A stretch of DNA of 64,000 nucleotides from a virus, in the IMG/VR virus record IMGVR_UViG_3300028571_000009, one strand, 5' to 3'. The translations under genes and the position numbers were made by a program. The notes under the pieces are model-generated. The model ran no database searches, had not been told where the DNA came from, and worked only from the letters and a program-made list of their open reading frames with translations. Shown here piece after piece: positions 49,212 to 55,735 of the stretch (positions are counted from its first letter, which is position 1; every line of letters begins with the position of its first letter).

Positions 49212-49285
49212 GGGCTATTAGCTTAAATCGGTAATAGCGCTCGGTTGAAGCCCGAGAGATACAGACTCAAGGCCTGTATAGCCCG
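49212..49285 (+). tRNA. trnF: tRNA-Phe(GAA), degenerate T-loop
   Basis: Cloverleaf; T-loop CTCAAGG is non-canonical. Confidence 0.65.
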
Positions 49286-49323
49286 CTGAATTGTAATGTT
49301 ATTTGACATATTGTAAGAAAAAT

Positions 49324-49411
49324 TGTGCGGTGCACCGAGTGGCCGATGGTAGCTGACTGTTAATCAGCCGGACGTAGTTTGTCCCGCGTGAGTTCGAATC
49401 TCACTCGCACA
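49324..49411 (+). tRNA. trnN: tRNA-Asn(GTT) with long variable arm
   Basis: GCTGA-CTGTTAA-TCAGC; class II variable arm. Confidence 0.8.
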
Positions 49412-49417
49412 TCAATT

Positions 49418-49496
49418 GGGGTAGTTCCAGGGAGTTGTAGTGACTGTAAATCATAAACACGTGGCGTTCAAGTCGCCCCTATCCCTCAATAATAAA
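49418..49496 (+). tRNA. trnY: tRNA-Tyr(GTA), reduced D-arm
   Basis: Acceptor and T arms present; CTGTAAA loop. Confidence 0.6.
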
Positions 49497-49498
49497 AT

Positions 49499-49582
49499 GT
49501 CAAGTTCGTCTAGTTGGTAGGACACCACACTTTCACTGTGGAATGCGTAAGCTGCGGACGGGTTCGAGCCCCGTACTTGATA
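49499..49582 (+). tRNA. trnE: tRNA-Glu(TTC) with extended variable loop
   Basis: CCACA-CTTTCAC-TGTGG. Confidence 0.85.
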
Positions 49583-49588
49583 CTAAAT

Positions 49589-49664
49589 GGTGCTGCAGAA
49601 TATGGAGTATTTTGCCTTCCTGTCACGAAGGAGATTGAGGGTTCGAGTCCCTTCAGTACCGCCA
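49589..49664 (+). tRNA. trnD: tRNA-Asp(GTC)
   Basis: Cloverleaf with encoded CCA. Confidence 0.9.
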
Positions 49665-49684
49665 AAGTAACCTTGCTAAAATGT

Positions 49685-49742
49685 CTTAGCACCTCTTAGG
49701 CAGCAATGCTCGTAAGTCGCAAGGGACGTGAAAGGTGCTAAG
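49685..49742 (+). ncRNA. Candidate small structured RNA
   Basis: 10-bp closing stem with two GCAA-capped hairpins. Confidence 0.4.
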
Positions 49743-49752
49743 AAACTTATTT

Positions 49753-49830
49753 GCTCTTGTACCCGTATATTGGACATAGGAACGTGCTTTTAACACGTCG
49801 AGAATGTGGGTTCGATTCCCGCCGGGAGCA
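49753..49830 (+). tRNA. trnK: tRNA-Lys(TTT)
   Basis: ACGTG-CTTTTAA-CACGT. Confidence 0.85.
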
Positions 49831-49934
49831 CAGGGATGATTGCGAGTTCGAGTCTCGTTGAATTGTAATATCCGGATATTACTGATGTTAAATCATTAGA
49901 TTCATAGCTTAATTTGGTAAAGCTCCCGTTTTTT
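49831..49934 (+). ncRNA. Circularly permuted tRNA-like element (3' half before 5' half)
   Basis: T-arm at 49842-58 precedes D-arm at 49907-23; complementary acceptor strands. Confidence 0.55.
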
Positions 49935-50007
49935 CTTGGTGTAGGAAAGTTGGTAATCCGCGATATTTGGGATATCGAGACCGTGGGTTCGAGCCCCGCC
50001 ACTGAGA
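49935..50007 (+). tRNA. trnP: tRNA-Pro(TGG)
   Basis: CGATA-TTTGGGA-TATCG. Confidence 0.9.
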
Positions 50008-50051
50008 CGCTGGTTTTAGCATTTTATACTTTAACGGAAAAATGCAAATTT

Positions 50052-50123
50052 GCCTCAGTAGTGTAATGGCTAACATTCCCGCTTCCAAACCGGGCGATTA
50101 GGGTTCGAGTCCTTACTGGGGTG
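50052..50123 (+). tRNA. trnW: tRNA-Trp(CCA)
   Basis: CCCGC-TTCCAAA-CCGGG (C31.C39 mismatch); G73. Confidence 0.7.
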
Positions 50124-50134
50124 CTAATAAATAA

Positions 50135-50211
50135 TGGTGCGTAACCACCCTGCCTGATACGCAGGAGTAAGGTAATGGTTGTAAATGTGGGTTCAAGTCC
50201 CATCGCACCGA
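50135..50211 (+). tRNA. D-armless tRNA-like gene, anticodon GAT (Ile)
   Basis: 7-bp acceptor, 7-nt linker, anticodon arm, 21-nt insert, canonical T-arm. Confidence 0.65.
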
Positions 50212-50227
50212 CTAAAAATTAAATTGT

Positions 50228-50389
50228 ATGAAAGCGTACGGAGTAAGAAAAAAAGATGACGATTGCTGTCCCGGACATTCCAAATATGGAGTAGCCAGTG
50301 CAGAATGTGGTAGCCAACGCCGAGGTAAGCGTTCTAAAAATAAGGATAAAGCACGTAAAGCTAAAATGCGACAGTTAACTATAAATTAA
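50228..50389 (+). CDS. Small basic protein, 53 aa
   Basis: Hand-translated MKAYGVRKKDDDCCPGH... Confidence 0.6.
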   Translation: MKAYGVRKKDDDCCPGHSKYGVASAECGSQRRGKRSKNKDKARKAKMRQLTIN

Positions 50390-50394
50390 ATATC

Positions 50395-50556
50395 ATGGCA
50401 CAAATAGGAAACAAAATTAATTCGTACCTAAATGGTGAATGGGCAAAGCATGGTCGACCTTTTGGTAAGAAACTTGCAGCACGTGTTAGGCGTATGATGG
50501 GTAAGGACGAAATTATTAAACAATTAAAAGAAATAAAGGAGTATGGCAAAGATTGA
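50395..50556 (+). CDS. Small basic protein, 53 aa
   Basis: Hand-translated MAQIGNK...GEWAKH.RPFGKK. Confidence 0.55.
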   Translation: MAQIGNKINSYLNGEWAKHGRPFGKKLAARVRRMMGKDEIIKQLKEIKEYGKD

Positions 50557-50713
50557 CAAAAAGAAAGATAGGATTCGTGAACAAATCAGAATTCTAGGTG
50601 ATGAAATGAATTCAGCGTTAACTAAAAAGACATCGAATGTTAAGGAAATAAATGTTCCGGAGCATACTAGAAAAATTTCTAAGTTAATTGATGAACTTAA
50701 ATCACTAAAATAA
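50543..50713 (+). CDS. Small coiled-coil protein, 56 aa
   Basis: Hand-translated MAKIDKKK...LKSLK. Confidence 0.55.
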   Translation: MAKIDKKKDRIREQIRILGDEMNSALTKKTSNVKEINVPEHTRKISKLIDELKSLK

Positions 50714-50718
50714 TAAAT

Positions 50719-50791
50719 GGGGTACTAGTGAAACTGGCTATCATAGTAGATTTGCATTCTACTGTTTCGGATTCGAATTCCGAGTGCTCCA
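50719..50791 (+). tRNA. trnA: tRNA-Ala(TGC)
   Basis: Cloverleaf with G3.U70. Confidence 0.9.
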
Positions 50792-50797
50792 CTGTTT

Positions 50798-50874
50798 GCT
50801 CCCATATACCCTCAAGCTTATATCTTGTAGAAAGGTTAATTGGTCACATAAGAGTTCGAATCTCTTTGGGAGTA
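50798..50874 (+). tRNA. D-armless tRNA-like gene, anticodon TAT (Ile)
   Basis: Same 77-nt segment layout as 50135-50211. Confidence 0.6.
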
Positions 50875-50882
50875 CATAATAT

Positions 50883-50955
50883 GCTTTTGTAGCTTAATTG
50901 GCAAAGCTCCCGGCTCTTAACCGGAGGAGTGAAAGTTCGAGTCTTTCCAGAAGCA
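50883..50955 (+). tRNA. trnK: tRNA-Lys(CTT)
   Basis: Cloverleaf, CTCTTAA loop. Confidence 0.9.
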
Positions 50956-50964
50956 CTAAAATAT

Positions 50965-51037
50965 GGTTCCGTAGCATAGCGGCAAATGCGGTGGTTTTAC
51001 ATACCACATATCCAGAGTTCGAGTCTCTGCGGAACTA
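50965..51037 (+). tRNA. trnV: tRNA-Val(TAC)
   Basis: Cloverleaf. Confidence 0.9.
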
Positions 51038-51042
51038 CAATT

Positions 51043-51115
51043 GCAATTATAGCTCAGCTGGTAGAGCGTCTCGTTGCCAACGAGAAGGTCGTGCGTTCAA
51101 ACCGCATTAATTGCT
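51043..51115 (+). tRNA. trnG: tRNA-Gly(GCC)
   Basis: Cloverleaf, U73. Confidence 0.92.
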
Positions 51116-51120
51116 CAATT

Positions 51121-51195
51121 GCGTCATTCGCCTAATTGGCTATGGCACTACGCTTCCAACGTAGAATAGTATCGGTTCGAGTCCGATATGGCGCA
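51121..51195 (+). tRNA. trnG: tRNA-Gly(TCC)
   Basis: CTACG-CTTCCAA-CGTAG. Confidence 0.9.
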
Positions 51196-51256
51196 CTAAA
51201 GGGTTGGTTGATGACCGAAAGCAATGCTAATCACATTGCTGACTCTTGTGAAATTT

Positions 51257-51336
51257 GCCTTTGTGGCTCAGCGGCGACAGCACCTGTTTTGTAAACAGGG
51301 ACACAAACATCGGGGGTTCGATTCCCTCCAAAGGCT
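51257..51336 (+). tRNA. trnT: tRNA-Thr(TGT)
   Basis: Cloverleaf with 12-nt variable loop. Confidence 0.88.
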
Positions 51337-51345
51337 CATTAATAT

Positions 51346-51418
51346 ACCGATGTAGTTCAGCCGGAAGAACACTCGTTTCATACACGAAAGGTCGCAGATT
51401 CGAATACTGCCATCGGTA
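51346..51418 (+). tRNA. tRNA with CAT anticodon (Met or Ile2)
   Basis: Cloverleaf; lacks initiator features. Confidence 0.85.
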
Positions 51419-51430
51419 CTAATTTTAAAT

Positions 51431-51516
51431 TGCATTATCGCCTAACTGGCAGGGCACGGGGCTTTGAATCCCGCAGTCGAAAGACTCTCGGTCTAGGTTC
51501 GAATCCTAGTGGTGCA
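51431..51516 (+). tRNA. tRNA-Gln(TTG)-like, 8-nt anticodon loop, long variable arm
   Basis: U1-A72, Gln-type D-arm; CGGG-CTTTGAAT-CCCG. Confidence 0.6.
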
Positions 51517-51562
51517 ACATAGTTTTCGGTTTCGTTTCATGCTTCTATGAAAACGAACATTT

Positions 51563-51652
51563 GGAAAAGTCAACCGAAATTGGTATCGGCCCCGTCTTGA
51601 AAACGGGTCATCGCTGCAAGGTGGTGTGAGGGTTCGAGTCCGTCCTTTTCCG
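51563..51652 (+). tRNA. trnS: tRNA-Ser(TGA)
   Basis: Class II, G73. Confidence 0.9.
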
Positions 51653-51658
51653 CAACAT

Positions 51659-51735
51659 GGAGTATGTAGATTTAATGGTAGAACGCTGGGTTGTGAACCT
51701 TGTAGTTGGCAGTTCGACTCTGCTCATACTCCCCA
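51659..51735 (+). tRNA. trnH: tRNA-His(GTG)
   Basis: Encoded G-1, C73 and CCA. Confidence 0.9.
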
Positions 51736-51739
51736 TAAT

Positions 51740-51813
51740 GCTCCGGTAATCCAACGGAAGAGATATCAGACTTAAACCCTGTACAGGTGTGGGTTCGAAT
51801 CCCACTCGGAGCA
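51740..51813 (+). tRNA. trnL: tRNA-Leu(TAA), short variable loop
   Basis: Cloverleaf; weak anticodon stem. Confidence 0.75.
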
Positions 51814-51906
51814 CGAAGTAAGGAAGTAGTTCCCCACGTGGCCCCGCGTTGGATGAATGAAAATTAGTCCCTTATGAAGTATTGTAAAATGCAAGCGGGG
51901 CGCTTT

Positions 51907-51994
51907 GGAAAGGTAAGCATAATGGTACTGCCGCGCATTGCTAATGCGTTCATCGTCGTAAGATGGTGTGAGAGTTCGAGTCTCTTCCTTTCCG
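51907..51994 (+). tRNA. trnS: tRNA-Ser(GCT)
   Basis: Class II, G73. Confidence 0.9.
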
Positions 51995-52078
51995 CTATGA
52001 GAGAATATGGGGTTAAAGTACCCATGCGATAGCCTGGCCAGCATTCGTTCCGTTCTAAGTTAAGGCGCTCTCAGTTAT

Positions 52079-52152
52079 GCACCTGTAATTCAATTGGACA
52101 GAAGAACAGTTTTCTAAACTGTATGCTGTGGGTTCGAGTCCCGCCAGGTGCT
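52079..52152 (+). tRNA. trnR: tRNA-Arg(TCT)
   Basis: ACAGT-TTTCTAA-ACTGT. Confidence 0.88.
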
Positions 52153-52163
52153 CAAAATAATAT

Positions 52164-52240
52164 GGTCCAGTATCCCAACGGAAGAGGAAATAGTTTTAGA
52201 AACTATACAGGTGTGGGTTCGAATCCCACTTGGACTACCA
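52164..52240 (+). tRNA. trnL: tRNA-Leu(TAG), short variable loop
   Basis: Cloverleaf with encoded CCA. Confidence 0.88.
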
Positions 52241-52244
52241 AAAT

Positions 52245-52318
52245 ATTCCCGTAATGGCGCTGTCTTCGAAACAGTATGTGCATAATGGATAATGTGAGTT
52301 CGAGTCTCACCGGGGATA
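52245..52318 (+). tRNA. D-armless tRNA-like gene, anticodon TCG (Arg)
   Basis: Acceptor, 7-nt linker, GCTGT-CTTCGAA-ACAGT, 18-nt insert, T-arm. Confidence 0.6.
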
Positions 52319-52324
52319 CTAAAT

Positions 52325-52397
52325 GCTTCTGTAGGCTAATTGGATAAACCACTACATTACGGATGTTGGATTTCGAGTTCGAGTCTCGATGGAAGCG
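52325..52397 (+). tRNA. trnR: tRNA-Arg(ACG)
   Basis: Cloverleaf. Confidence 0.85.
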
Positions 52398-52414
52398 CTG
52401 ACAAAATAATATAA

Positions 52415-52654
52415 ATGAAAACTACAACAGAACGAGATAGATTATTTGCTAAAACTCTTGCTAATTTAATACTGGGACCTATGTCTGAATATTGTAACAA
52501 GAATAAAATTCCATTTGATGAACTTCCTCTTATGCCCGGACAAGGAGCTGAGGTAGTTGAATTAATTATTGACAATAAAATATCGTTTAGTAATGCTAAA
52601 ATTTTATTAAATATATTATATGAACAAAATTTAGCAAGAACGACAAAAAATTAA
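52415..52654 (+). CDS. Hypothetical protein, weak GatB-helical-domain resemblance
   Basis: ELI...KIS...AK.LL pattern. Confidence 0.5.
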   Translation: MKTTTERDRLFAKTLANLILGPMSEYCNKNKIPFDELPLMPGQGAEVVELIIDNKISFSNAKILLNILYEQNLARTTKN

Positions 52655-52657
52655 TAC

Positions 52658-52733
52658 GGCTAGGTACCTAATGTTGGTAAAGGGATATGTCTGCAAAACA
52701 TAGTTAACACCAGTTCGATTCTGGTTCTATCCT
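52658..52733 (+). tRNA. trnC: tRNA-Cys(GCA)
   Basis: CTGCAAA loop, U73. Confidence 0.85.
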
Positions 52734-52757
52734 CGAATAATATTTATAATTAAATAA

Positions 52758-53234
52758 ATGGTCATGGAATTACAATTCAAAAGTTTAACCGACAGAAAAG
52801 ACGTCGACTTAATTCAATACATTACTGATTATACAAAGTCAAACGCTGACGTAGAAATTTACGTTGGGTGTGACTCGCAAGTGCACGGCCGTAATATTGA
52901 TTATGGTATTGTCGTAATATTGCACAAGCCGCACGCGGGTGGGCACGTACTATACACTGAAGTTCAAACTAATAGAATTAAAGGTAAACCGACTGAAAAT
53001 TTATTCACGCGGTTATGGCAAGAAGTCGAATTTTCTCTAACCATTGCCGAGCGATTAAGAGCATCGGATATTAAGGTTAAGTATATTGACGTAGACTTAA
53101 ACCCAGACCCTAGATGGGGTTCTAATACGGTGTTACGTGCGGCTATGGGCTACGTGGAATCTATGGGATACATTCCTAGATGTAAACCGGATGCATGGTC
53201 AGCCAGTTACTGCGCCGACAAAATATGTAAGTAA
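52758..53234 (+). CDS. RNase H-like protein (YkuK/DUF458)
   Basis: YVGCDSQ, RLWQEV, DVDLN, SN, KPDAW.AS..AD. Confidence 0.8.
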   Translation: MVMELQFKSLTDRKDVDLIQYITDYTKSNADVEIYVGCDSQVHGRNIDYGIVVILHKPHAGGHVLYTEVQTNRIKGKPTENLFTRLWQEVEFSLTIAERLRASDIKVKYIDVDLNPDPRWGSNTVLRAAMGYVESMGYIPRCKPDAWSASYCADKICK

Positions 53235-53356
53235 AAGTTTGGTAAATCAAATGGTTTTAATTATCTTTCTAAGGTAATTAAAACCTTTACATATGAATAG
53301 TGGTGAGTTATTAATATTCGTTTGGTAATTCATATGAAATTTCTTATCTTTATAAT

Positions 53357-53524
53357 ATGACAAAGAAAGAAGAAGAGAAATTAAAAAAATATATTCCGCC
53401 TAAAAAGTACACCGGTGAATATCGTTTTAGTATAAAGTATTGTCCGGGATATGAAGGATATATACCAGAAAATCTAACTCATGAAGTTTGTAAATACTGT
53501 GGACAAATAAGTTATTATCATTAA
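53357..53524 (+). CDS. Small hypothetical protein, 55 aa
   Basis: Hand-translated; ATG 4 nt after TATCTTTA; CKYC. Confidence 0.5.
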   Translation: MTKKEEEKLKKYIPPKKYTGEYRFSIKYCPGYEGYIPENLTHEVCKYCGQISYYH

Positions 53525-53525
53525 T

Positions 53526-54098
53526 ATGAAGCATAATTTTCCAGATAAAATAATTTTCTTAGATGTAGACGGTGTAATTTGTGTTGGTCACGACCATTAC
53601 AGACATTTTAACCAAATATGTTTGGAGCTACTTCAAGAAATAATTGACGCTACGGGCGCAAAAATTGTTGTATCGTCGTCGTGGCGTGACTCTGATTCTG
53701 TTCGAATGAAGGCTAACTTCTTAGAGCATGGGTTTACTGAGAAATTATGGGGAGAAGTAATTGATATTACAATTCGTGGATATTCACATATTATTAAAGG
53801 GTCTAAACTACCTATTGTTAGGGGTAACGAGATTAAAGCATGGGTAGATACAAAAATGATTTACCCGTGGCACTCAGACCCTTCTCTAGATAAACAATAT
53901 CAAATTCTTAGAGAGGATGGTAGTTTTAAAATAATGAATTCTAATAAATTAGGAGTTGATTTTAGCTACGTAATATTAGATGATGACGCTGATATGCTAT
54001 ATGAACAACGAAATCATTTTATTCAAACAGGTGCTATGTTCGGGTTATCAATATATGACCGGGATAACGCAATAAAAATATTGAATTATGGAAAGTAA
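53526..54098 (+). CDS. HAD-family protein (HAD_SAK_2, RNA-repair-associated type)
   Basis: FLDVDGV, IVVSSSWR, YVILDD. Confidence 0.8.
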   Translation: MKHNFPDKIIFLDVDGVICVGHDHYRHFNQICLELLQEIIDATGAKIVVSSSWRDSDSVRMKANFLEHGFTEKLWGEVIDITIRGYSHIIKGSKLPIVRGNEIKAWVDTKMIYPWHSDPSLDKQYQILREDGSFKIMNSNKLGVDFSYVILDDDADMLYEQRNHFIQTGAMFGLSIYDRDNAIKILNYGK

Positions 54099-55334: not shown

Positions 55335-55695
55335 GGGGGCGACTGGAATAGATTGGCTAAGAATGGTAAACAATTAGGTGCGTGATTGATACAGTACACG
55401 TTAAAAATTGGTATTAACAATAAACGTAGAAAAATCTACATTTACATTCGAAGATGCTATGGCATTTGTATCGAGTGAAGAGTTAGTGTTGGCTTAGTAA
55501 CAGAACACACTCCCATCTATGGGTCAAATAGAAGTTTTACTTGTTTTCACAAAACGAGTTGGTGGACCGTTGATTGTAACCCAATCAGCCCTAATTATTT
55601 TGGAGAGCTAATAAGATTAAACTCTAACCTAAACCTATAAATAAATTGTTTGCGAGTTGTAGAGCAAGACCGGGGTTCGAAACCCCGCGCCTCCA
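55335..55695 (+). ncRNA. ssrA: tmRNA
   Basis: GGGGGCG/CGCCTCC-A acceptor with G3.U70, T-arm GGGGTTCGAAACCCC, internal tag ORF 55426-55497. Confidence 0.93.
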
Positions 55696-55735
55696 CAGTT
55701 TTTATTTTTTTTTTAACCAAACCAAATACAAGTAC

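What the first reader, a model, noticed from the sequence alone, without database searches (positions are those of the whole stretch)
50135..52318. Family of three D-armless tRNAs with a D-loop-like motif moved 3' of the anticodon arm
Seen: 50135-50211 (GAT), 50798-50874 (TAT) and 52245-52318 (TCG) each have a 7-bp acceptor, TA+5 nt, a 17-nt anticodon arm with U33, an 18-21-nt insert containing TAAT(T)GG, a canonical T-arm and A73. The two Ile genes have identical segment lengths (77 nt) and the shared motif AG(T/A)AAGGT(T)AAT(T)GGT pairing back to ACC, despite divergent stems. There is no canonical Ile(GAT) gene in the array. Established: bacteria usually read AUA and CGA via lysidine-CAU and inosine-ICG; D-armless tRNAs are chiefly mitochondrial. 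Inference: a rearranged tRNA fold that rebuilds the elbow from the other side and decodes modification-dependent codons, or a mimic of synthetase/nuclease substrates. I know no description of it but could not search.
Basis: partly seen in the sequence, partly recalled or inferred. Interest (0 to 1): 0.85.

Follow-up and report, generated by a model that had tools for sequence, protein, structure and literature searches.

The report
Phage tRNAs with a rewired D-arm
Three overlooked genes in this lake phage's tRNA cluster are most likely working isoleucine and arginine tRNAs that keep every standard tRNA part but join the D-arm pieces in a different order. Many uncultured phages share this non-cloverleaf layout, gene finders miss it, and I found no paper describing it.

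Summary
Three genes, at 50135-50211 (GAU), 50798-50874 (UAU) and 52245-52318 (UCG), have a 7-bp acceptor stem, U8-A9, a 5-nt connector, a normal anticodon arm, an 18-21-nt insert, a normal T-arm and A73. Rfam's tRNA model scores them 28.6-30.5 bits (threshold 29) only by deleting the D-arm. ARAGORN misses or misfolds them.

They are not D-armless. I collected 96 distinct homologues from 82 phage loci: 35 Ile (UAU, GAU) and 61 Arg (UCU, UCG, ACG, CCU). In these, connector nucleotides 11-13 covary with the three nucleotides just before the TAAT(T)GG motif, in 20 different combinations. The D-stem therefore encloses the anticodon arm, and a canonical-looking D-loop follows it.

The nucleotide after GG is A in 61/61 Arg types and U in 34/35 Ile types. 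All 35 Ile types have A73. These match the known identity elements of ArgRS and IleRS.

Relatives of this phage carry canonical Ile genes in the same array slots.

The best reading is functional elongator tRNAs with the 10-21 segment moved behind the anticodon arm. Expression and charging are untested. Why the layout is selected is unknown.

This scan has already reported the same family from several other genomes.

The parts
50135..50211 (+). c1: rewired tRNA-Ile(GAU), 77 nt. Acceptor 5' strand 50135-50141. U8-A9 50142-50143. Connector ACCAC 50144-50148. Anticodon arm 50149-50165 (anticodon 50156-50158). Linker AGTA 50166-50169. D-stem partner AGG(T) 50170-50173. D-loop-like TAATGGTTGTAAAT 50173-50186. 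T-arm 50187-50203. Acceptor 3' strand 50204-50210. A73 50211.
   Evidence: RF00005 29.9 bits with the D-arm deleted. Family model R1 73.1 bits. Parsed. Homologues of this long-tail GAU type occur in L009, L061, L063, L065 and L066.
50798..50874 (+). c2: rewired tRNA-Ile(UAU), 77 nt. Acceptor 5' strand 50798-50804. U8-A9 50805-50806. Connector TACCC 50807-50811. Anticodon arm 50812-50828 (anticodon 50819-50821). Linker AGAAA 50829-50833. D-stem partner GGT 50834-50836, pairing with ACC 50808-50810. D-loop-like TAATTGGTCACAT 50837-50849. T-arm 50850-50866. Acceptor 3' strand 50867-50873. A73 50874.
   Evidence: RF00005 28.6 bits. R1 87.8 bits. 29 distinct UAU homologues; ACC/GGT, CCC/GGG and TCC/GGA covary.
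52245..52318 (+). c3: rewired tRNA-Arg(UCG), 74 nt. Acceptor 5' strand 52245-52251. U8-A9 52252-52253. Connector ATGGC 52254-52258. Anticodon arm 52259-52275 (anticodon 52266-52268). Linker ATGT 52276-52279. D-stem partner GCA(T) 52280-52283. D-loop-like TAATGGATAAT 52283-52293, with A20 at 52289. T-arm 52294-52310. Acceptor 3' strand 52311-52317. A73 52318.
   Evidence: RF00005 30.5 bits. R1 58.5 bits. The ATGGC/GCA subclass recurs with UCG, UCU and CCU anticodons in L139, L178, L183, L188 and L191. A related lake strain carries it as TAATTGG with G1. It is absent from relative L008.
49212..52734 (+). The tRNA gene array that holds the three genes: 23 further tRNA genes scoring as canonical tRNAs, none of them tRNA-Ile.

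Best explanation
The three genes encode elongator tRNAs: Ile-GAU, Ile-UAU and Arg-UCG. In them, the block that normally lies before the anticodon arm has been moved behind it. That block is the 5' strand of the D-stem plus the D-loop, canonical positions 10-21.

The 5-nt connector after U8-A9 plays the role of the 3' D-stem strand plus position 26, and runs straight into the anticodon stem. After the anticodon arm come three elements in turn: a 3-5-nt purine-rich linker; a triplet that pairs back to the connector; and a D-loop of canonical sequence (A14 A15 U16 (U17) G18 G19 N20 ... A21). Two or three further nucleotides, ending in U (48), lead into the T-arm.

The D-stem therefore encloses the anticodon arm instead of the D-loop. 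It can still stack on the anticodon stem, and G18-G19 can still dock on the T-loop, so the L-shape should be kept. This 3D step is inferred. In canonical tRNA crystal structures, three neighbourhoods correspond to the three new junctions: 8/9 lie near 22/23; 44/45 lie near 10; and 21 lies near 46-48. Each new junction therefore joins residues that are already neighbours.

The host IleRS and ArgRS would charge these tRNAs. The tRNAs would then read AUU/AUC, AUA and CGA/CGG. Isoleucine makes up 7.6% of the codons in this AT-rich phage's genes.

The layout most likely arose once, by duplication and deletion inside a tRNA gene. It then spread between phages and switched between Ile and Arg identity. 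UAU to UCU is one anticodon change, plus U20 to A20.
For: Shown:
1. The layout, and borderline tRNA-model matches with the D-arm deleted.
2. A widespread family. One pattern hit 44 IMG/VR contigs, a second hit 8, and an Arg pattern hit at least 119. This gave 96 distinct sequences in 82 loci.
3. Covariation in every helix of a 40-sequence alignment. 93.4% of cells are paired, against 63% in shuffles and at most 52% when the partners are slid. 19 of 20 pairs show changes on both sides.
4. The connector/triplet helix itself. It occurs in 20 different combinations, for example CCC/GGG, ACC/GGT, TCC/GGA, CTC/GAG, CAC/GTG, CGG/CCG, CAG/CTG, CGA/TCG and CCA/TGG. 249 of 285 cells are paired, against a shuffle mean of 135 and a maximum of 160 in 2000 shuffles.
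5. Invariant or near-invariant U8, A9, A14, A15, G18, G19, U48, and in the T-arm G53, T54, T55, C56, A58 and C61.
6. Identity nucleotides track the anticodon. A20 is present in 61/61 Arg types, U20 in 34/35 Ile types, and A73 in 35/35 Ile types. These match the published determinants: A20 for ArgRS; the discriminator and D20 for IleRS (PMC9976931).
7. Relatives have canonical genes in the same slots. L011 has Pro-Trp-Ile(GAU). L001 has Ala-Ile(UAU)-Val. Another relative, L009, has the rewired pair and no canonical Ile.
8. The window's array has no other tRNA-Ile. AUA makes up 38% of Ile codons and CGA 18% of Arg codons.
9. A related lake strain keeps c2 and c3. The listed changes fit the fold: A1 to G gives a G-U pair, and TAATGG becomes TAATTGG.
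Against: - There is no evidence of transcription, processing, CCA addition or charging. No RNA run holds this DNA, and CCA is not encoded.
- The D-like helix is only 3 bp. In 36 of 95 members one of its three pairs is a mismatch, and this includes c1 and c3 in the family register.
The register in the long-tail GAU subclass is therefore not settled.
- The 27:43 pair is U-U in most UAU members.
- The 3D argument is inference from canonical tRNA structures, not a model of this RNA.
- My search patterns were built from Ile and Arg members, so the restriction to these two amino acids may be partly a sampling effect.
Confidence: 0.78

Rival explanations
1. The same functional tRNAs, but the rewiring is selected as a counter-measure. 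It would remove the canonical D-arm hairpin, so the phage copies escape a tRNA-directed nuclease or modifying enzyme. That enzyme could be a host defence or the phage's own host shut-off. The synthetase identity elements would be kept. This extends the best explanation rather than excluding it.
For: - Phage tRNAs are known to evolve resistance to host tRNA nucleases (PMC10264068 and PMC12409363, listed).
- The family appears confined to phage contigs. A scan of one genome for each of 185,579 prokaryote species gave three real copies, all in short or phage-like MAG contigs that carry tRNA arrays.
- Rewired and canonical versions replace each other in the same array slots among relatives.
Against: - No nuclease or defence system was linked to these tRNAs here.
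- Known evasion works through anticodon-loop changes, not core rewiring.
- Some phages keep a canonical and a rewired Ile side by side, for example Kehishuvirus.
Confidence: 0.25
2. The genes encode tRNA mimics that are not used in decoding. They could be decoys or sponges for a synthetase, a nuclease or a modification enzyme, or regulators.
For: - The core is non-canonical and there are no expression or charging data.
- A tRNA-like, YrlA-like element lies in the same array, so this phage does carry tRNA mimics.
Against: - Anticodon loops are fully canonical (U33, purine 37).
- Six sense anticodons occur, each with the matching identity nucleotides at 20 and 73.
- Acceptor stems are 7 bp and intact.
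- The genes sit in the slots of canonical Ile genes and are the only Ile tRNAs of otherwise broad arrays.
Confidence: 0.1
3. The genes are decaying pseudogenes, produced by a rearrangement of canonical tRNA genes.
For: - They score at or below the Rfam tRNA threshold.
- c3 is absent from the closest relative with data, L008.
Against: - 96 distinct sequences keep all four helices through compensatory changes.
- They also keep about 15 invariant tertiary nucleotides.
- Flanking spacers vary while c2 and c3 are kept in a related strain.
Confidence: 0.02

Closest known systems
Canonical class I elongator tRNA (Rfam RF00005), specifically bacterial and phage tRNA-Ile and tRNA-Arg
   Same: - Acceptor stem, anticodon arm, T-arm and discriminator.
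- U8, A14, R15-Y48, G18-G19, A21, T54-A58 and G53-C61.
- A20 in the Arg types and U20 with A73 in the Ile types.
- The same slots in the tRNA array as the canonical genes of relatives.
   Different: - The order of parts along the chain differs: block 10-21 lies after the anticodon arm.
- The D-stem is therefore closed by the anticodon arm, not by the D-loop, and there is no cloverleaf.
- Scores are only 28.6-30.5 bits.
- ARAGORN made a correct call for 0 of 96 members.
D-armless mitochondrial tRNAs of animals (for example mt tRNA-Ser(AGY) and nematode mt tRNAs)
   Same: There is no hairpin between position 9 and the anticodon arm, only a short connector.
   Different: - The mitochondrial forms have lost the D-loop and its G18-G19 contact with the T-loop. 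They are shortened and often need adapted partners such as a special EF-Tu (PMC1636415, listed).
- Here the D-loop and the D-stem are both present, only relocated. Total length is normal at 73-82 nt.
Circularly permuted tRNA genes of the red alga Cyanidioschyzon merolae (from my own knowledge: Soma et al. 2007)
   Same: The parts of a tRNA are encoded in a non-standard order.
   Different: - There the whole gene is rotated, and processing through a circular intermediate restores a standard tRNA.
- Here the cyclic order of the parts differs from the canonical one. No circularisation and cut can restore a cloverleaf, so the mature RNA itself must be rewired.
Class II tRNAs (Leu, Ser, bacterial Tyr) and allo-tRNAs (review PMC7609411)
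   Same: They have extra sequence between the anticodon arm and the T-arm. Allo-tRNAs are another non-canonical class found by metagenomics, and UAU is a common anticodon among them.
   Different: - The class II variable arm is a self-contained hairpin added to an intact D-arm.
- Allo-tRNAs change the lengths of the acceptor and T stems (8/4, 9/3).
- Here the insert pairs with the 5' connector and carries the D-loop, and the acceptor/T geometry is the standard 7/5.

Membership tests
tRNA (Rfam RF00005, canonical cloverleaf) | Score at or above the curated gathering score (29 bits) | tested here: inconclusive
   c1 scores 29.9, c2 28.6 and c3 30.5 bits in short-stretch searches. None was reported in the whole-window search at the gathering threshold.
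tRNA (Rfam RF00005, canonical cloverleaf) | A 7-bp acceptor stem with discriminator, a 5-bp/7-nt anticodon arm with U33 and a purine at 37, and a 5-bp T-arm with a T-Psi-C-type loop | tested here: met
   Covariation supports these helices in 40 sequences.
tRNA (Rfam RF00005, canonical cloverleaf) | A D-arm hairpin (stem 10-13/22-25 closing the D-loop) between position 9 and the anticodon arm | tested here: not met
   Only 5 nt lie there. The Rfam alignment deletes the 15 D-arm positions.
tRNA (Rfam RF00005, canonical cloverleaf) | Conserved tertiary nucleotides U8, A14, R15/Y48, G18, G19, A21, T54, Psi55, C56, A58 | tested here: met
   All are present and invariant or nearly so, but 14-21 lie after the anticodon arm.
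tRNA (functional definition) | Transcribed, 5'/3' processed, CCA added, aminoacylated and used on the ribosome | not testable with these tools
   No RNA run is listed for this DNA.
Rewired-D-arm phage tRNA family (model R1 built here; the same family reported by earlier agents of this scan) | A connector triplet (11-13) that pairs with the triplet just 5' of TAAT(T)GG, which is followed by N20 ... U48 and the T-arm | tested here: met
   R1 scores c1 at 73.1, c2 at 87.8 and c3 at 58.5 bits. The best canonical tRNA reaches 38.8 bits. The sequences the model was built from match it by construction. The 52 Arg-type hits were not in the model and score 49-74 bits.
Animal mitochondrial D-armless tRNA | Loss of the D-loop and of the D-loop/T-loop contact, with a shortened molecule | tested here: not met
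   The D-loop motif with GG is conserved, and length is 74-77 nt.
Class II tRNA (long variable arm) | The insert forms its own hairpin, beside an intact D-arm | tested here: not met
   The insert covaries with the 5' connector and not with itself, and there is no D-arm upstream.

The most novel reading that the evidence does not exclude
This would be a natural, translation-competent class of tRNA whose chain threads the canonical L-shaped core in a different order, with block 10-21 moved behind the anticodon arm. Phages would maintain it because the rewired core escapes a host or phage enzyme that recognises the canonical D-arm, while the identity elements of IleRS and ArgRS are kept. If so, the cloverleaf connectivity is not required for decoding, and phages exploit that freedom in the conflict over tRNAs.
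Probability: 0.25. Interest if true: 0.9.

Novelty: new variant of a known kind. Interest (0 to 1): 0.8.

Why it matters
The cloverleaf is treated as universal outside organelles. A widespread set of phage tRNAs that keeps the tertiary-contact nucleotides but changes the strand connectivity would have several consequences.

- It would show that the tRNA core tolerates rewiring.
- It would give a natural test case for what synthetases, EF-Tu, RNase P, modification enzymes and the ribosome really read.
- It would show that phage tRNA sets are systematically undercounted. ARAGORN made 0 of 96 correct calls, and the gene is unannotated in three GenBank crAss-like or gut phage records.

Undercounting affects work on codon usage, host prediction and recoding in phages. 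A cultured phage-host pair that carries a member makes the question directly testable.

Tried and rejected
- **Close phage genomes.** A megablast of the array against 50,697 phage records found nothing.
- **Window's own genome.** No whole genome is held for it.
- **Exact c1 pattern.** It had no match in IMG/VR. A relaxed GAU pattern added no new loci, so the register of the D-like helix in the long-tail GAU subclass, which includes c1, stays open.
It is 63% paired, and only one pair shows changes on both sides. I rejected it as the family helix.
- **A fourth pair, 10:40.** It is unpaired in 37 of 40 sequences, mostly as U-U.
- **A local D-hairpin inside the insert.** This is possible only in c3 (GCAT...ATGT), where it overlaps the T-stem. 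It is not conserved.
- **Rescue by circular permutation or processing.** Rejected because the cyclic order of the parts differs from the canonical one.
- **Bacterial chromosomes.** Of 12 pattern hits in representative genomes, 9 have no tRNA structure. The other 3 lie in short or phage-like MAG contigs.
- **Expression.** No RNA holder is listed for this DNA. Only DNA contigs could be laid on it.
- **Literature.** Eight full-text searches found no description of such tRNAs. The 2020 review of non-canonical tRNAs does not mention phage or viral tRNAs.
- **MAFFT alignment of the three genes alone.** It misaligned c3 and was not used.
Full report
**Context**

The window is part of a 182-kb contig from a lake-water metagenome. 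Its genes are phage genes: DNA ligase, an RNA-repair-type HAD domain, an endolysin, a baseplate gp25 homologue in relatives, and a ClpP-type protease. A tRNA array spans 49212-52734 on the + strand. It holds 23 genes that score as canonical tRNAs, and a tmRNA lies downstream.

**Observation**

- a 7-bp acceptor stem, then U8-A9;
- five further nucleotides;
- a 5-bp/7-nt anticodon arm with U33 and a purine at 37, with anticodons GAT, TAT and TCG;
- an insert of 21, 21 or 18 nt holding TAAT(T)GG;
- a standard T-arm, the 3' acceptor strand and A73.

Rfam's tRNA model aligns them end to end at 29.9, 28.6 and 30.5 bits, against a threshold of 29. To do so it deletes the D-arm (4 nt for 15 positions) and inserts 15-18 nt in the variable region. 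ARAGORN misses two of them and gives the third a wrong 96-nt fold. No other Rfam family comes near its threshold.

**A family, not three oddities**

I started from a neighbouring conserved protein, an RNase H-like YkuK-family protein at 52758-53234, and fetched relatives of the phage. A descriptor scan of their arrays found the same layout for Ile-UAU and Ile-GAU in L009/L010, whose marker protein is 63% identical.

Patterns derived from these sequences gave the following hits in IMG/VR:
- 44 contigs for the UAU type;
- 8 contigs for the GAU type;

I built a covariance model from 40 of them (R1). It scores members at 49-96 bits. The best canonical tRNA, in about 1.3 Mb of phage tRNA arrays, scores 38.8 bits. 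The window holds exactly three members.

GenBank phage records also carry members, all unannotated: 'bajarodcaudo virus 1', crAss-like phage cr130_1, and the cultured Kehishuvirus 'tikkala' of Bacteroides cellulosilyticus. The paper on 'tikkala' counted 24 tRNAs with tRNAscan-SE (PMC10028833).

A scan of one genome for each of 185,579 prokaryote species gave 12 pattern hits. Three are real copies, all in short or phage-like MAG contigs with tRNA arrays. Nine have no tRNA structure.

ARAGORN gave a correct call for 0 of the 96.

**Anatomy**

On the 40-sequence alignment all helices covary. 93.4% of cells are paired, compared with 63% in shuffles and at most 52% when partners are slid. 19 of 20 pairs show changes on both sides.

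The key result is a fourth helix. Connector nucleotides 11-13 pair with the three nucleotides immediately 5' of TAAT(T)GG. This helix is 93.3% paired, and all three pairs change on both sides.

Over all 95 members with a 5-nt connector there are 20 different combinations, including CCC/GGG, ACC/GGT, TCC/GGA, CTC/GAG, CAC/GTG, CGG/CCG, CAG/CTG, CTG/CAG, CGA/TCG and CCA/TGG. 249 of 285 cells are paired. Shuffling the triplets gives a mean of 135 and a maximum of 160 in 2000 trials.

It is only 63.3% paired, with one doubly changed pair.

These RNAs are therefore not D-armless. In canonical numbering the chain reads:

acceptor, U8 A9, [22-25], 26, anticodon arm 27-43, a linker (AGAAA in most UAU types), [10-13], A14 A15 U16 (U17) G18 G19 N20 ... 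A21, two or three nucleotides ending in U48, T-arm, acceptor, 73.

Block 10-21 has changed places with block 22-45.

Several positions are invariant or nearly so: U8, A9, A14, A15, G18, G19, U48, G53, T54, T55, C56, A58 and C61.

**Mechanism (inferred)**

The connector strand runs 5' to 3' straight into the anticodon stem, as 22-26 does in a normal tRNA. The triplet strand leads into the D-loop, as 10-13 does. The short helix can therefore stack on the anticodon stem, and the D-loop can reach the T-loop as usual.

The three new junctions are 9 to 22, 43/44 to 10, and 21 to 46-48. Each joins residues that are neighbours in canonical tRNA structures: the base triples 9-[12:23], 45-[10:25] and 46-[13:22], and the 8-14-21 layer. 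This rests on textbook knowledge of yeast tRNA-Phe, not on a computation done here.

No circular permutation of the RNA could restore a cloverleaf, because the cyclic order of the parts differs.

**Evidence for real decoding function**

The nucleotide after G18-G19 is A in 61/61 Arg-type members and U in 34/35 Ile-type members. A73 is present in 35/35 Ile types, whereas the Arg types carry A, G or U there.

A20 is the main determinant for bacterial ArgRS. The discriminator, the anticodon and D-loop positions including D20 are determinants for E. coli IleRS (PMC9976931).

In the window's array the two rewired genes are the only tRNA-Ile genes. In 12,035 codons of the window's long ORFs, Ile makes up 7.6%. 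AUA is 38% of Ile codons and CGA is 18% of Arg codons.

**Evolution**

- c1 follows Pro and Trp, exactly where relative L011 has a canonical Ile-GAU.
- c2 lies between Ala and Val, where L001/L002 have a canonical Ile-UAU with a similar acceptor stem.
- L009 has the rewired pair and no canonical Ile.
- c3 lies between Leu-UAG and Arg-ACG. The closest relative with data there, L008 (marker protein 81% identical), has nothing between those two genes.
- A related lake strain in run X8 keeps c2 and c3. It shows A1 to G, which gives a G-U pair, and TAATGG to TAATTGG in c3. It lacks the YqeY-domain ORF at 52415-52654.

Canonical and rewired genes therefore replace each other in the same slots.

An Arg-ACG member (L149) shares its connector, linker and triplet with c2 and differs at position 20. 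This suggests identity switches within one lineage. UAU to UCU is a single anticodon change. Single origin and identity switching are inference.

**Open points**

- In the family register, c1 has C-G, C-G and A-U pairs plus an A-A mismatch. c3 has A-U, U-A and G-C pairs plus a G-G mismatch or a bulged G.
The seven long-tail members (six GAU, one UAU) cannot settle this.
- Why only Ile and Arg were found may partly reflect my search patterns.
- Why the layout is selected is unknown. Escape from tRNA-directed nucleases is a plausible idea (context: PMC10264068, PMC12409363). It is untested here.

**Novelty**

Eight full-text searches and a review of non-canonical tRNAs gave no description. After my own analysis I consulted this scan's earlier notes. 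Several agents had reported the same rewired Ile/Arg family from other genomes, and they also found no paper. Those notes agree with my result but are not independent evidence.

**Verdict**

Noticed in passing
window 49831-49934 (Rfam match 49815-49951): Another first-reader note calls this stretch a circularly permuted tRNA. It aligns to Rfam YrlA (tRNA-like Y RNA, RF02553) at 30 bits against a threshold of 69. The T-arm, an acceptor-like stem closed by a 34-nt loop, and the D-arm all match well. The Ro-binding stem does not. It may be a YrlA-like tRNA mimic rather than a permuted tRNA gene.
   Followed up: partly
window 55335-55698: A phage-encoded tmRNA: Rfam RF00023 at 54.7 bits against a threshold of 47, over the full model length. 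ARAGORN does not call it.
   Followed up: no
window 49324-49413, 49499-49583, 51257-51337, 51431-51518, 51740-51814, 52164-52240: Other tRNAs of the array have unusual sizes. Asn-GUU is 90 nt, Glu 85 nt, Thr 81 nt and Gln 88 nt; the Gln gene has an AGTC-GAAA-GACT hairpin in the variable region. The two Leu genes (UAA 75 nt, UAG 77 nt) lack the long variable arm expected of bacterial tRNA-Leu. No Tyr or Phe gene is called.
   Followed up: no
window 52415-52654: A 79-aa ORF with a GatB/YqeY domain sits between Arg-ACG and Cys inside the tRNA array. It is absent from relative L008 and from the related strain in run X8.
   Followed up: partly
window 52758-54098: Two genes lie directly downstream of the array: an RNase H-like YkuK/DUF458 protein and a protein with the HAD domain of 'Swiss Army Knife' RNA-repair proteins. 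The YkuK-family gene follows the tRNA array in all relatives fetched.
   Followed up: no
L079 2469-2545 (OQ198717.1 95577-95653): The cultured crAss-like phage Kehishuvirus 'tikkala' carries an unannotated rewired tRNA-Ile(GAU) between its annotated tRNA-Trp and tRNA-Met. It also has a canonical tRNA-Ile(UAU).
   Followed up: yes
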